30,342 bases of DNA from Candidatus Sigynarchaeum calidifontis (GCA_030587475.2 JAUQYZ020000071.1:1-30342), one strand, 5' to 3'. Shown: positions 5,605-30,342, counted from the stretch's first letter. Numbers and translations: made by a program. Notes: generated from the letters alone by a model not told the origin.

Positions 5605-5618
5605 CCGTGCATGCACGG
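5605..5618. promoter_or_regulatory. Perfect 14-bp palindrome CCGTGCATGCACGG, possible operator
   Basis: Read directly, 13 nt upstream of ATG 5632. A half-site copy CCCGTGCAT lies at 5559-5567. Confidence 0.3.
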
Positions 5619-5631
5619 GGGTAAATGCGCC

Positions 5632-7026
5632 ATGATCAAGGTCACAATAAAGCCCGTATTCCGGGATCAAGCAAACATCCAATTGCCACCAGAATCCGAT
5701 CTGGCCATCGAACCTGGGTACACTTACATCGCCGTTTCCGGGGTCCAGCAAAAACCTTTTTCTTTCTTGGCCAAGGTGCTCGAGGTAACTCCCGCGGACG
5801 TTCCGCGCCCCGTGCTCGAGGTCGATTCCCGCAAGACAGGGCCGCTAGCCGAGGGAGACGAGGTCGAGATGTTCCCTTACAACATCCCATTCGCCCGCAA
5901 GCTCGTGATTGGCATCCTTGACAAGTACCGGCTCATCACGCAAGGGAATTGGACATCGACGTTCTTGCCTGCGCTGAAGGATAAACTCTACGACGCGGCC
6001 GATGATCTCAACGTGGCGGTGAACATCGGTACTGGCGTTCAAATCGTGCAGGGAACAGCGCTGGAATCCGATCCAAAGTTTCCCGTGGTCGTCGGGGACA
6101 CGACCATCATCGAGATCCGCAAGCTCGACAGGGACAAGCTCGAAAGCGCCCGCAAGGCGGCAACCGAGCACAAGGTGACGCGTGCCAGGGCATGGCGGGA
6201 ATCGCAGCAAGCGAGTTTAAAGGCGCTGATGGGCAAGCTGAAAGCAGGCGCCGTCGCCAAGGCCAAGCGGACCATCGAGTTCAGCGGGTTTTCGAGCGTG
6301 AAGGCGGTATCGAGCCTCATCCGGGGGCTCACTTCGGGCCTGGAGGAGGTCGAGACCAGCGAGGAGGAGAGCGGCGGGATCTACACGGCACACCATGCAT
6401 GCATCGTGCGCGAGGAGCTTGAACCCACGACGGTCATCGAGTTCCAGGTATCGAGCCAGAAAGGCGACGGGGTCATCTCGCTGCTCGTGTTCGCGAGCGA
6501 CGCGGCCAAGGCGGAGAAGCTGGCGGGTGACATTCTGCAAGACCTCGCGCGGCTACAAGCCGGGTTGAAGGGGAAGATCGAGATCGCCACTGTGAAGGTT
6601 TCGGATGCGGACATCCAAGCCTTCATCCTTGAACAAGGTAGCAAGGAACCCATGCGACCGCTCGCCAAGATCGCCGAGATCATGGCCAAGGAACATCCGG
6701 ACTGGCGCGTGGATGCCCGGCGGATCGAGAAGGTAGCCAAGGAGATGGACAAGCGGGGGCTCATCTCGAAACTCGAGAAGATGGATACCGGGTTTTACAT
6801 GGTGCATTTCTTGCCGCCCGATGTCATGGACGACCCGCTCAAGGTCTTGGCGCTAGCCGACACGCGGGGCGTGCTGTCGAGGGCGGATGTCATGGCGGCG
6901 CTCAACTGGCCCGAGCTGCGGGCGACGAGCGCTCTCGATTTCCTGGAGAAGAAGGGCATCGCCAAACGGGACAAGTCGTACCTCGCGGGCGTGAAATACT
7001 ATTTCCCGACGACCAGGGCAAAATAG
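5632..7026 (+). CDS. Multidomain protein: CDC48/NSF/UFD1 N-domain-like + middle alpha/beta domain + C-terminal EAP30 (Vps22/Vps36, ESCRT-II-like) tandem winged helix
   Basis: The C-terminal LPPDVMDDPLKVLALADTRGVLSRADVMAALNWPELRATSALDFLEKKGIAKRD...KYYFP matches the Vps22/Snf8 pattern (P.EL..D...L.LA...G......V...L.W...R...AL..L...G.A..D.....YWFP). The N-terminal EGDEVEM..NIPFARKLVI...ESDPKFPVVVGDTTIIEI matches the CDC48 N-domain pattern. No Walker A motif seen. Confidence 0.72.
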   Translation: MIKVTIKPVFRDQANIQLPPESDLAIEPGYTYIAVSGVQQKPFSFLAKVLEVTPADVPRPVLEVDSRKTGPLAEGDEVEMFPYNIPFARKLVIGILDKYRLITQGNWTSTFLPALKDKLYDAADDLNVAVNIGTGVQIVQGTALESDPKFPVVVGDTTIIEIRKLDRDKLESARKAATEHKVTRARAWRESQQASLKALMGKLKAGAVAKAKRTIEFSGFSSVKAVSSLIRGLTSGLEEVETSEEESGGIYTAHHACIVREELEPTTVIEFQVSSQKGDGVISLLVFASDAAKAEKLAGDILQDLARLQAGLKGKIEIATVKVSDADIQAFILEQGSKEPMRPLAKIAEIMAKEHPDWRVDARRIEKVAKEMDKRGLISKLEKMDTGFYMVHFLPPDVMDDPLKVLALADTRGVLSRADVMAALNWPELRATSALDFLEKKGIAKRDKSYLAGVKYYFPTTRAK

Positions 7027-7074: not shown

Positions 7075-7995
7075 TTGCCTCATCCCTGGACGCGGAACGG
7101 GAAACTGGTCCTGTTCCTCCTGCCGGTATTGCTCGGAATTGTCGTCGTGCCCGTCCTCTTCGTAAAAGATAATTATTCCACGCTCGTAGGTTGGCTTATT
7201 ATCGAGCTCCTTATATGCTTCATTCTATTATTCCAGGGGATCTCAATCGTAATTGGAACCAAGGAACGAGGAGCATCTTTGAAGAATCGTGAGGTTGGCG
7301 TTTTCTTCATCTTGTCAGTGACCGTGATCGCTTGTTCCGCAAGTGGATATGCTGATACCCAGGCGACTCTAGACCGGATGCAATTCACGACGCTCGTCGA
7401 TCATCAACCAGTCGACATTCTGGCGGGGTCTCAAGCCTGGAATTATGCCTTCGCTGCCGACAACTATGATGACCTTCTGATCAAGATCGTCGGCTATGCA
7501 TCCGCCCCGTGCCCGACGAACGTGAAGTTACAATTCACGTGGACGGTATACCAGGACGGGACGTACTTGTATGGAGGCGACGTGCGTAAATTTGGCGGGG
7601 TAGGGTGTGAAGAGGATAACACGTCCGATCGAACCACAAGAATTAGCTTGTACGCGTGGAATTTCAAGGAAACGAATAAATTCAACATTTCCATCACGTT
7701 TTCATGCATTTCCTTTCCAGAAAATAACGAGGAAAGCATCTCCTTCACGATATACGGCACGACGAACTTCTCAAGGATCTGGTTTGGAGCGGGCGAGCTT
7801 AGACTCCTTTTTGGAACACCCCTTGTCATATGCACTGCTTCCGTGATTCTCGCGATACTGGGCATCATCCATATCGAGAGAGATCGATTGAAAAAGCGGC
7901 GACAAGCAAGCACCGAAACCGTGTGGAAGAGTTCCCCCTCAACTCCCGATCGTGATCTCCAAGATGACGGATCGAATCCCCAGGGATCTATTTAA
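7075..7995 (+). CDS. Hypothetical membrane protein (about 3 N-terminal TM helices, beta-rich external domain, C-terminal TM helix)
   Basis: TTG start preceded by GGGTGA. Clear hydrophobic segments. N-x-S/T sequons (NTS, NIS, NFS) in the soluble domain. Confidence 0.7.
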   Translation: MPHPWTRNGKLVLFLLPVLLGIVVVPVLFVKDNYSTLVGWLIIELLICFILLFQGISIVIGTKERGASLKNREVGVFFILSVTVIACSASGYADTQATLDRMQFTTLVDHQPVDILAGSQAWNYAFAADNYDDLLIKIVGYASAPCPTNVKLQFTWTVYQDGTYLYGGDVRKFGGVGCEEDNTSDRTTRISLYAWNFKETNKFNISITFSCISFPENNEESISFTIYGTTNFSRIWFGAGELRLLFGTPLVICTASVILAILGIIHIERDRLKKRRQASTETVWKSSPSTPDRDLQDDGSNPQGSI

Positions 7996-8018
7996 GGAGC
8001 TGTTGCGAGATCACGGGC

Positions 8019-30009: not shown

Positions 30010-30342
30010 TTAACCGAGGCTTTCGAGTTCGTTATATTGGAACAAGATCGTCGCCTTCTTGCCGTTTATTTCCTTGCCGATCACGTCCCCGAGCTTGTCC
30101 GATAGCTCGGCTGCCTCCTTGTATTTACTCGCCGCGGCGAGAAATTCCTCTTTCTTCATGTGTTCTCGCGCCGCCTTCAGTATCTTTTCGCGGCTCTTCT
30201 CCAGGATCGGTATCTCGGCGGAGCGGGCAGCATTCTTGCTGAACTCGTCAGCAAGCTCGGGCTCTTCCAATTCCAAAGCGCAGTTCTTGGCATCGTTGTA
30301 TGCCCTCGTCGATTCGTCGTATCGCTTTTCGTTGCGGAGGCG
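30010..30342 (-). CDS. C-terminal part of an alpha-helical repeat (TPR/SNAP/MIT-like) protein, truncated by window edge
   Basis: The frame is open to position 30342. It contains two similar helical hairpins: EKRYDESTRAYNDAKNCALELEE and KEEFLAAASKYKEAAELSDKLGD. Confidence 0.7.
   Translation of the reverse strand, partial: RLRNEKRYDESTRAYNDAKNCALELEEPELADEFSKNAARSAEIPILEKSREKILKAAREHMKKEEFLAAASKYKEAAELSDKLGDVIGKEINGKKATILFQYNELESLG

What the first reader, a model, noticed from the sequence alone, without database searches (positions are those of the whole stretch)
5632..7026. Unusual fusion: CDC48/UFD1-type N-domain + platform-like domain + ESCRT-II (EAP30) winged helices, outside an ESCRT operon
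Seen: three modules (about 5632-6120, 6260-6550 and 6610-7023), no ATPase motifs, and no Vps25/Snf7/Vps4 neighbours. Known: EAP30 winged helices bind Vps25 to nucleate ESCRT-III, and CDC48-N/UFD1 folds bind adaptors or ubiquitin. The middle part (RTIEFSGFSSVKAVSSLIRGL...VISLLVFASDAAKAEKLAGDIL) resembles by pattern the appendage platform domain of adaptin/coatomer subunits (tentative). Inference: an adaptor linking Ubl-tagged or coat-type cargo to ESCRT, possibly a reader for the Ubl encoded ~11 kb away.
Basis: partly seen in the sequence, partly recalled or inferred. Interest (0 to 1): 0.72.

Follow-up and report, generated by a model that had tools for sequence, protein, structure and literature searches.

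The report
Cdc48-N plus Vps22 fusion adaptor
An Asgard archaeon joins in one protein two partners that its relatives encode as separate genes beside a UFM1-type protein-tagging operon: a Cdc48-N-like binding module and an ESCRT-II (Vps22)-like module. This makes a possible link between tagging and membrane sorting testable, also in the cultivated Lokiarchaeum ossiferum.

Summary
Window 5632-7026 (+) encodes a 464-aa protein with four parts:
- a Cdc48/p97-N-type two-lobed beta domain
- a basic helix
- a helix-grip (TBP-like) domain
- a tandem winged helix that by sequence and fold is a Vps22/EAP30 relative

It has no ATPase motif and no ESCRT neighbours.

The new point is context. In 8 of 8 other Asgard genomes checked, a ~360-aa Cdc48-N + TBP-like + zinc-ribbon homologue lies directly upstream of an E1-JAB-Ubl-UFC1-like E2 operon. 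In 6 of those 8 a Vps22-like protein lies next to the operon, and in 5 of the 8 an SPFH gene does too. In Ca. Lokiarchaeum ossiferum the full-length fusion (33% identity) follows E1-JAB directly. Here the same cassette lies 9 kb away, and 3.5 kb away in a close relative.

So this protein fuses two accessory subunits of that cassette. The tree suggests the join or module swap happened more than once.

It is most likely a tag-system adaptor. Neither Ubl binding nor a link to ESCRT was tested here.

This scan had already noted the operon linkage on other genomes, but I found no note of the fusion. I found no paper describing either.

The parts
5617..5622 (+). Shine-Dalgarno-like GGGGGT, 9 nt before the ATG
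   Evidence: read directly from the sequence
5632..7026 (+). gene for the 464-aa fusion protein (P0001)
   Evidence: full-length homologues at 83-93% identity; AF2 mean pLDDT 87.1
5632..6129 (+). Cdc48/p97-N-like domain, aa 1-166: first lobe of six strands (about aa 1-84), second lobe (about aa 85-166). Contains the family-wide I-T-x-G-N/D-W-T motif at aa 102-108
   Evidence: Foldseek top hits are all Cdc48/p97/VAT N domains, E 5e-9. VIA: CDC48A-N Z 11.0, p97 10.4, PEX1-N 10.0, NSF-N 9.9, VAT-N 9.6. W107 is nearly invariant
6130..6243 (+). long basic helix, aa 167-204 (pI 11, net charge +7)
   Evidence: AF2 secondary structure; charge calculation
6244..6570 (+). helix-grip / TBP-like domain, aa 205-313 (strand-helix-four strands-helix)
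   Evidence: AF2. VIA: 1vjh Z 10.5, Roco COR 3dpu_B 10.4, Flpp3 9.8, AP-2 beta2 appendage platform 3h1z_A 9.7, BamC-N 9.3
6604..6810 (+). winged helix 1 of the Vps22-like unit, aa 325-393
   Evidence: AF2. VIA 3cuq_A (human Vps22) Z 10.9 with 143 residues aligned across both winged helices
6811..7023 (+). winged helix 2 of the Vps22-like unit, aa 394-464. Carries D447 and ends in a YYFP motif
   Evidence: Pfam EAP30 E 0.0025; SNF8 E 3e-4; own-genome Vps22 33% identity, E 4e-15. D447 aligns with yeast Vps22 Asp214
16012..17352 (-). JAB/MPN metalloprotease of the linked cassette
   Evidence: Pfam Prok-JAB 6.8e-10; adjacent to homologues of the target in other genomes
17264..18025 (-). ThiF-type E1 of the linked cassette
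   Evidence: Pfam ThiF 2.9e-53
18141..18428 (+). 95-aa Ubl gene of the linked cassette, ending ...DQGDVGART
   Evidence: 56% identity to the L. ossiferum operon Ubl; ORF
18266..19018 (+). UFC1-like E2 of the linked cassette. This is the listed ORF; similarity begins near 18425
   Evidence: Pfam UFC1 8.8e-7; all 20 PDB sequence hits listed at E<=0.01 are UFC1

Best explanation
The gene encodes a soluble, non-enzymatic adaptor. It joins in one chain two accessory subunits of an Asgard E1-JAB-Ubl-UFC1-like E2 (UFM1-type) conjugation cassette. One is a Cdc48-N-like + TBP-like module, which relatives encode with a C-terminal zinc ribbon as the first gene of the operon. The other is a Vps22 (ESCRT-II)-like tandem winged helix, which relatives encode as a separate gene next to the operon, often paired with an SPFH scaffold gene.

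Shown here: the domain folds, the Vps22 homology, the conserved gene linkage, and the domain fusion.

Inferred: the Cdc48-N-like lobes bind the Ubl, free, E2-bound or conjugated. This is by analogy with p97-N binding UBX folds and the UFD1 UT3 domain binding ubiquitin. The winged helices then dock the complex onto a winged-helix partner. That partner could be Vps25 or Vps22 of ESCRT-II, which would make the protein a Vps36-like cargo-reading subunit, or another copy of the protein itself. The basic helix may help it sit on the membrane.
For: Folds:
- N domain.
- Middle domain and winged helices.

Vps22 homology:
-.
- The profile of the operon-linked 350-aa family hits human SNF8 at E 3.8e-16.
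- hhalign of the fusion family against that 350-aa family gives probability 99.7%.

Gene linkage:
- In L. ossiferum the 33%-identical full-length homologue starts 46 nt after JAB, on the same strand as E1-JAB, with Ubl and E2 divergent.
- In 8 of 8 other genomes the ~360-aa N+middle+Zn-ribbon homologue directly precedes E1-JAB-Ubl-E2.
- In 6 of 8 a Vps22-like protein is adjacent, and in 5 of 8 an SPFH gene is.
- In an 84%-identical relative only two genes separate the target from JAB.
- No other window gene is shared with those loci.

Fusion replaces the separate genes:
- Neither G000 nor L. ossiferum shows a separate N+middle gene with this query.

The join or swap is recurrent:
- The fusions form two clades in the N+middle tree, and the AU test rejects a single clade at p 0.002.

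Partners and interface:
- D447 aligns with yeast Vps22 Asp214, the salt-bridge partner of Vps25 Arg83 (PMC539351).
- The genome has Vps25, Vps22 and four Snf7 genes elsewhere.
Against:
- In this genome the gene is 9 kb from the cassette and probably not co-transcribed with it.
- No ESCRT gene is near the fusion in any locus examined.
- The Asp at the Vps25-contact position is lost in three distant fusion homologues (P0008, P0013, P0017).
- The N-terminal helical region of Vps22 is absent.
- Each single winged helix matches many DNA-binding wHTH proteins as well as it matches ESCRT-II.
- The N domain has no Pfam hit of its own. Only one homologue reaches CDC48_2, at E 9.6e-4.
- The Ubl has no UFM1 hit by single-sequence search.
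- Both trees are quick ones, and the AU test was run after the tree had been seen.
Confidence: 0.5

Rival explanations
1. It is the cassette's E3-like scaffold or substrate selector rather than a reader. It would hold the charged UFC1-like E2 and a target together, as the winged-helix scaffold UFL1-DDRGK1 does for UFM1 in eukaryotes, and it would have no connection to ESCRT.
For: - No E3-family gene turned up among the operon and flanking genes scanned with Pfam.
- The eukaryotic UFM1 E3 is built of winged helices, and the UFL1-DDRGK1 chimera 8b9x appears among the Foldseek hits (E 1.2e-3).
- The N+middle gene is first in the operon and sits tight against E1.
Against: - ESCRT-II scores far better than UFL1 (5.8e-7 against 1.2e-3).
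- Sequence searches find only Vps22.
- Pfam UFL1 and DDRGK models do not hit this protein.
- The genome has a separate UFL1-like protein on contig C101.
Confidence: 0.22
2. It is part of an optional stress or antiviral module. The E1/E2/Ubl/JAB set has the same parts list as bacterial Bil-type defence operons. The Cdc48-N + TBP-like module would sense or choose a foreign target, and the winged helices would assemble or localise the response.
For: - The same N+middle module occurs after a TIR domain (P0012; ThsB-like E 1e-5). The N domain alone occurs after a NACHT-like NTPase (P0034).
- The distribution is patchy: about 10 of 300 sampled genomes have an N+middle match at E below 4e-14.
- The locus is variable, with a three-gene insert relative to a close relative.
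- Earlier scan notes reached a similar reading.
Against: - PADLOC gives no meaningful hit for this protein or for its operon partners. The E1 and JAB of the cassette get only generic E1-E2 and JAB matches.
- No effector domain is present in this protein.
- The E2's only PDB matches are eukaryotic UFC1.
- This reading does not exclude the adaptor role.
Confidence: 0.15
3. It is a DNA-binding regulator. The winged helices would bind DNA and the N-terminal modules would sense a ligand or the Ubl.
For: - Each winged helix superposes on MarR, IclR, Z-alpha and similar DNA binders at Z 9-10.8.
- WH2 is basic (pI 9.4).
- The ~460-aa neighbours in other genomes hit HTH models.
Against: - All sequence-level matches are to Vps22/SNF8, not to regulators.
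- Among the listed VIA matches, only ESCRT-II and TFIIIC span both winged helices.
- The genome's canonical Vps22 is equally basic.
Confidence: 0.06
4. It is an ordinary ESCRT-II paralogue, a Vps36-like partner of Vps22 unrelated to the Ubl cassette, and the nearby cassette is coincidence.
For: - Vps22 homology, and the retained Asp at the Vps25-contact position.
- Hatano 2022 (PMC9192718) notes that some Asgard Vps22 proteins may need an unknown partner.
Against: The linkage to the cassette recurs in all ten genomes examined across distant lineages, while no ESCRT gene is linked in any of them.
Confidence: 0.05

Closest known systems
Vps22 / EAP30 / SNF8 (ESCRT-II), including the ~240-aa Asgard Vps22 (asCOG cog.002769; Hatano 2022, Makarova 2024)
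   Same: Homologous tandem winged helix: 33% identity to the genome's own Vps22. The acidic residue at the Vps25-contact position and the C-terminal YYFP motif are both kept.
   Different: It lacks the N-terminal helical / steadiness-box part. It carries 320 extra N-terminal residues. It falls in a separate paralogue clade (quick tree, SH-aLRT 90). It is linked to a Ubl cassette, not to Vps25, Vps4 or ESCRT-III.
Vps36 (ESCRT-II subunit with an N-terminal GLUE domain, which in yeast carries inserted NZF fingers)
   Same: The same logic: an N-terminal recognition module followed by a tandem winged helix.
   Different: The recognition module here is Cdc48-N-like plus TBP-like, not a PH/GLUE domain. 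There is no evidence of orthology.
Cdc48/p97/VAT N domain and the UFD1 UT3 domain
   Same: Two-lobed beta fold (Z 9.6-11.0 over 154-160 residues). In those proteins this fold binds ubiquitin-fold domains or adaptors.
   Different: No AAA ATPase follows. Sequence similarity is marginal. UFD1 itself was not among the listed matches.
Split form in other Asgard genomes: a ~360-aa Cdc48-N + TBP-like + zinc-ribbon protein, and a 350-464-aa Vps22-like protein, both beside the E1-JAB-Ubl-E2 operon
   Same: Homologous modules (23-40% identity in the N+middle part; hhalign probability 99.7% for the winged helices) and the same cassette.
   Different: Here the zinc ribbon is replaced by the Vps22-like unit in one chain, and no SPFH gene is nearby.
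UFL1-DDRGK1, the eukaryotic UFM1 E3 scaffold
   Same: A winged-helix protein working with a UFC1-type E2. There is a weak fold match (E 1.2e-3).
   Different: No sequence match. A separate UFL1-like protein exists in this genome.
Adaptin-appendage-like (Ig + TBP) zinc-ribbon proteins of euryarchaeal 'Meth_adaptin' ESCRT loci (Makarova 2024, PMC10936438)
   Same: A TBP-fold domain combined with a zinc ribbon or winged-helix partners, with SPFH genes in a membrane-remodelling context.
   Different: There is no Ig-like subdomain here. The lineage is different. Homology was not tested.

Membership tests
EAP30/Vps22 family (PF04157) | Sequence homology of the winged-helix core | tested here: met
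   The single sequence scores below the Pfam cut-off (18 bits against 26.8). However, SNF8 is the only significant PDB hit with the family profile (E 1.3e-8), BLASTP against the same genome's Vps22 gives E 4e-15, and 12 of 39 relatives hit EAP30.
EAP30/Vps22 family (PF04157) | Two consecutive winged helices arranged as in ESCRT-II | tested here: met
   AF2 pLDDT 91. 3cuq_A Z 10.9 with 143 residues aligned across both domains, though the rmsd is 13.7, so the relative orientation of the two domains is not reproduced. ESCRT-II chains fill Foldseek ranks 1-6.
EAP30/Vps22 family (PF04157) | N-terminal helical region (steadiness box in Asgard Vps22) | tested here: not met
   The Pfam match covers only model positions 129-219 of 219. 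The residues before aa 325 form other domains.
EAP30/Vps22 family (PF04157) | Acidic residue that pairs with Vps25 Arg83 (yeast Vps22 Asp214) | tested here: met
   D447 aligns with position 214 of 1u5t_A in an ungapped 71-residue match. It is invariant in the six close homologues and is lost in three distant fusions. Its role is taken from PMC539351.
EAP30/Vps22 family (PF04157) | Binds Vps25 and assembles ESCRT-II | not testable with these tools
   No complex prediction was available, and no experiment was possible.
Cdc48/p97-N-like domain (CDC48_N + CDC48_2) | Two-lobed beta fold: double-psi barrel plus a second barrel | tested here: met
   Foldseek E 5e-9, TM 0.60-0.64 against isolated p97-N. 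VIA Z 11.0, rmsd 4.0, 154 residues aligned. The psi-loop topology itself was not inspected.
Cdc48/p97-N-like domain (CDC48_N + CDC48_2) | Sequence match to the Pfam models | tested here: inconclusive
   No hit for this protein. One relative hits CDC48_2 at E 9.6e-4. VAT-N scores E 0.49 with the profile, in register.
Cdc48/p97-N-like domain (CDC48_N + CDC48_2) | Followed by AAA+ ATPase domains | tested here: not met
   No Walker A motif. The downstream domains are a helix, a TBP-like fold and winged helices.
Adaptin/coatomer appendage platform | TBP-like platform subdomain | tested here: inconclusive
   AP-2 beta2 residues 836-937: Z 9.7, rmsd 3.2, 98 residues aligned. This is tied within one Z unit with Bet v1, Roco COR, Flpp3 and BamC folds.
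Adaptin/coatomer appendage platform | Preceding Ig-like beta-sandwich subdomain | tested here: not met
   A single long helix (aa 167-204) precedes the domain.
UFL1 / DDRGK1 (UFM1 E3) | Match to PF09743 or PF09756 | tested here: not met
   Neither model hits this protein. The genome-wide search places the matches on contig C101 instead.
Known anti-phage defence families (PADLOC) | Match to a defence-system model | tested here: not met
   The only hit is a stray AbiEi wHTH match at E 3.8e-4 with no stretch passing on its own.

The most novel reading that the evidence does not exclude
This is a prokaryotic, single-chain counterpart of Vps36. Its Cdc48-N/UFD1-like domain reads a UFM1-type tag, and its Vps22-like winged helices recruit Vps25 and ESCRT-III. 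If so, tag-directed ESCRT sorting in the archaeal relatives of eukaryotes would have used, or also used, a UFM1-type modifier. The same gene sits inside the operon of the cultivated Lokiarchaeum ossiferum, where this can be tested.
Probability: 0.18. Interest if true: 0.85.

Novelty: new variant of a known kind. Interest (0 to 1): 0.62.

Why it matters
Asgard archaea are the best window on how eukaryotic tagging and membrane-sorting systems began. UFC1 was reported as eukaryote-only in 2023 (PMC10183829), and Ufm1 homologues were reported in Asgard archaea only in 2026 (PMC12962969). I found no paper linking them to ESCRT-II-like, SPFH or Cdc48-N-like proteins.

A domain fusion is classical evidence that two proteins work together. 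Here it ties a predicted tag-binding module to a Vps22 relative, and the join or module swap appears to have happened more than once.

Because a full-length homologue lies in the E1-JAB operon of a cultivated species, binding, conjugation and localisation experiments are feasible now.

Tried and rejected
- The metagenome scan returned only one near-identical partial locus. The broader alignment A2 gave no usable pattern.
- NCBIfam gave no hit. The ESM Atlas gave no usable hit for the fusion or for the split form. PADLOC gave nothing meaningful.
- A search for the coiled-coil + winged-helix relatives (P0020 type, 44% identical in the C-terminus) found none in 300 sampled genomes, so their context is unknown.
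- The careful winged-helix tree did not finish. Only the quick tree is reported.
- The ~460-aa neighbours are not UFL1-like by BLAST against the genome's UFL1-like protein.
- The Ubl has no Pfam or PDB match by single sequence. I therefore rest the 'UFM1-type' label on the UFC1-like E2 and on published and earlier-scan work.
- I rejected an AAA ATPase fragment, because there is no Walker A motif.
- I rejected a membrane protein, because there is no hydrophobic segment.
- UFD1 was not among the listed fold matches. This does not exclude it.
- Co-occurrence statistics across the phylum were not computed.

Full report
**What is there**

Window 5632-7026 (+) is a 464-aa ORF. A GGGGGT motif lies 9 nt before the ATG, and a second in-frame ATG lies at 5611. 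Homologues at 83-93% identity cover its full length in other assemblies. One of these is named Lokiarchaeota and another Promethearchaeota, that is, Asgard. The protein has no Walker A motif, one cysteine and no hydrophobic segment.

**Domains**

AlphaFold2 with 39 aligned relatives gives mean pLDDT 87.1. The model has these parts:
- an all-beta N domain (aa 1-166)
- one long helix (aa 167-204; pI 11, net charge +7)
- a strand-helix-four strands-helix domain (aa 205-313)
- a short disordered linker
- two winged helices (aa 325-464)

*N domain.* It matches Cdc48/p97/VAT N domains. Foldseek gives E about 5e-9, with TM 0.60-0.64 against isolated p97-N. VIA gives Z 11.0 (rmsd 4.0, 154 residues aligned), with PEX1-N, NSF-N, VAT-N and Sec18-N close behind. 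At sequence level the evidence is thin. One relative hits Pfam CDC48_2 at 9.6e-4, and VAT-N scores E 0.49 against the profile.

*Middle domain.* I refolded it together with the C-terminus (pLDDT 91.2). It is a helix-grip/TBP-like fold. The matches are Bet v1-like 1vjh (Z 10.5), Roco COR (10.4), Flpp3 (9.8), the AP-2 beta2 appendage platform (9.7) and BamC-N (9.3). Makarova et al. 2024 (PMC10936438) treat this TBP fold as the C-terminal half of the adaptin appendage and find it in several archaeal ESCRT-like loci.

*C-terminus.* It is a true Vps22 relative:
- Pfam EAP30 scores E 0.0025, below the cut-off.
- SNF8 scores E 3e-4 with the single sequence and 1.3e-8 with the family profile, where it is the only significant hit.
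- It is 33% identical (E 4e-15) to the genome's own canonical Vps22 on contig C70.
- ESCRT-II chains take Foldseek ranks 1-6.
- Among the listed VIA matches, only ESCRT-II and TFIIIC span both winged helices.

Each winged helix on its own matches many DNA-binding proteins equally well.

**Context: the main result**

The window holds no Vps25, Snf7 or Vps4 gene. Those lie on other contigs. The window does hold a JAB, a ThiF E1, a 95-aa Ubl and a UFC1-like E2 at 16012-19018.

A search of 1.8 billion representative proteins showed that the protein is modular:
- Full-length relatives at 26-32% identity exist (P0008, P0010, P0013, P0017).
- About 50 relatives found across carry only the N domain, or the N+middle part, most with a C-terminal zinc ribbon in place of the winged helices.
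- The C-terminal unit occurs behind other N-termini.

In Ca. Lokiarchaeum ossiferum (CP104013.1) the full-length homologue (33% identity) starts 46 nt after JAB, on the same strand as E1-JAB. The Ubl and the UFC1-like E2 are divergent just upstream.

I fetched the loci of eight other Asgard genomes that have the ~360-aa zinc-ribbon form. Seven are from the same order and one from another family. In all eight the gene lies directly upstream of E1-JAB-Ubl-E2 on the same strand.

In six of the eight, a 350-464-aa protein ending in a Vps22-like tandem winged helix is adjacent. For the 350-aa type:
- Pfam EAP30 scores 8e-6.
- Its family profile hits human SNF8 at 3.8e-16 over nearly the whole protein.
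- hhalign against the fusion family gives probability 99.7%.

SPFH/Band 7 genes accompany the operon in five of the eight.

In an 84%-identical relative of the window, only two genes separate the target from JAB. The window carries a three-gene insert there. No other window gene recurs in the other loci.

Neither G000 (89% complete) nor L. ossiferum shows a separate N+middle gene with this query.

**Reading**

The 464-aa protein is a fusion of two accessory partners of this cassette. In a quick tree of the winged-helix unit, three groups cluster together: the fusions, the coiled-coil relatives, and the operon-linked 350-aa type. They sit apart from the canonical ~240-aa Vps22 proteins (SH-aLRT 90).

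In the N+middle tree the fusions form two clades, each nested among zinc-ribbon forms. The AU test rejects one clade (p 0.002). The caveats are that the tree is a quick one and the test was run after the tree had been seen. So the zinc ribbon and the Vps22-like unit were exchanged at least twice. This strengthens the inference that the two modules work together.

**Mechanism (inferred)**

By analogy with p97-N (which binds UBX folds) and UFD1 UT3 (which binds ubiquitin), the N domain most likely binds the Ubl or its conjugates. This rests on my own knowledge of those families.

The winged helices could dock on Vps25 or Vps22. D447 aligns with yeast Vps22 Asp214, which pairs with Vps25 Arg83. 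That residue is kept in this clade, in the L. ossiferum fusion and in canonical Asgard Vps22 proteins. It is lost in three distant fusions.

Hatano et al. 2022 (PMC9192718) report a single Vps22/36-like gene per Asgard genome and an unidentified partner in Odinarchaeota. A Vps36-like role is therefore conceivable.

The rivals are:
- an E3-like scaffold, since UFL1-DDRGK1 is also built of winged helices (Foldseek E 1.2e-3), although the genome has its own UFL1-like protein on contig C101
- a stress or antiviral module, suggested by TIR and NACHT fusions of the N module, patchy spread and a variable locus
- a DNA-binding regulator

**Novelty**

I found no paper in the held library that describes this architecture or the operon linkage. 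Makarova 2024 lists many Asgard ESCRT-related architectures, but I did not find this one there.

This scan had already noted, on other genomes, that ESCRT-II-like, SPFH and Cdc48-N-like genes accompany the UFM1-type operon. I reached that linkage independently before reading those notes. What is added here is the fusion itself, its recurrence, and its presence in a cultivated species.

**Limits**

- No interaction was tested.
- The trees are quick ones.
- The 'UFM1-type' label rests on the E2 and on published work (PMC12962969), not on my own test of the Ubl.

Noticed in passing
L020:12775-13587, L023:4131-4943 (-), L025:12584-13402, L026:6586-7422; window 18141-19018: In four relatives the Ubl and the UFC1-like E2 are one open reading frame of 270-278 aa. 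The tag would have to be cut free, presumably by the JAB protease. In the window they are separate, overlapping frames.
   Followed up: partly
G000 contig C101:3-1484 (-) (L034): A 494-aa open frame at a contig end carries several zinc ribbons and repeated winged helices. It matches Pfam E3_UFM1_ligase (41 bits summed) and DDRGK (30 bits summed). It is a UFL1-like protein encoded away from the cassette.
   Followed up: partly
proteins P0012 (557 aa) and P0034 (857 aa): The Cdc48-N + TBP-like + zinc-ribbon module also occurs behind a TIR domain, in a protein whose source names it Sigynarchaeota. The N domain alone occurs behind a NACHT-like NTPase. Both are immune-type architectures.
   Followed up: partly
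proteins P0045-P0047 and relatives; loci L007, L009, L011, L014, L016: A family of about 780 aa has a coiled coil, a CarboxypepD_reg Ig-like domain and a C-terminal EAP30 unit (Pfam E 3e-9). It is common in one large family (f10) of the phylum.
   Followed up: no
window 13469-15916 (+) and 12528-13322 (-): An 815-aa protein with no Pfam hit and a 7TM-type membrane protein lie between the target and the cassette. Both are kept in that position in the 84%-identical relative L017.
   Followed up: no
window 7075-12472: Three genes form an insert relative to L017: a 306-aa membrane protein, a 1044-aa glycoside-hydrolase-like protein and a 452-aa protein. The insert is shared with the metagenome contig L036. 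This marks the region as variable.
   Followed up: partly
L026:549-2372 (+): A 607-aa protein in an Asgard genome matches the CD36 family at E 2e-51. CD36 is a family best known from eukaryotic scavenger receptors.
   Followed up: no
window 30010-30342 (-): An open-ended ORF gives a weak SNAP (soluble NSF attachment protein) match at E 0.002, below the Pfam cut-off.
   Followed up: no
proteins P0020, P0021, P0026, P0028, P0030: These proteins of about 433-462 aa have a helical N-terminus, an acidic low-complexity linker, and a C-terminal unit 42-44% identical (P0020, P0021, P0026) to the target's winged helices, which is closer than the canonical Vps22. Their genomic context could not be retrieved.
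   Followed up: partly
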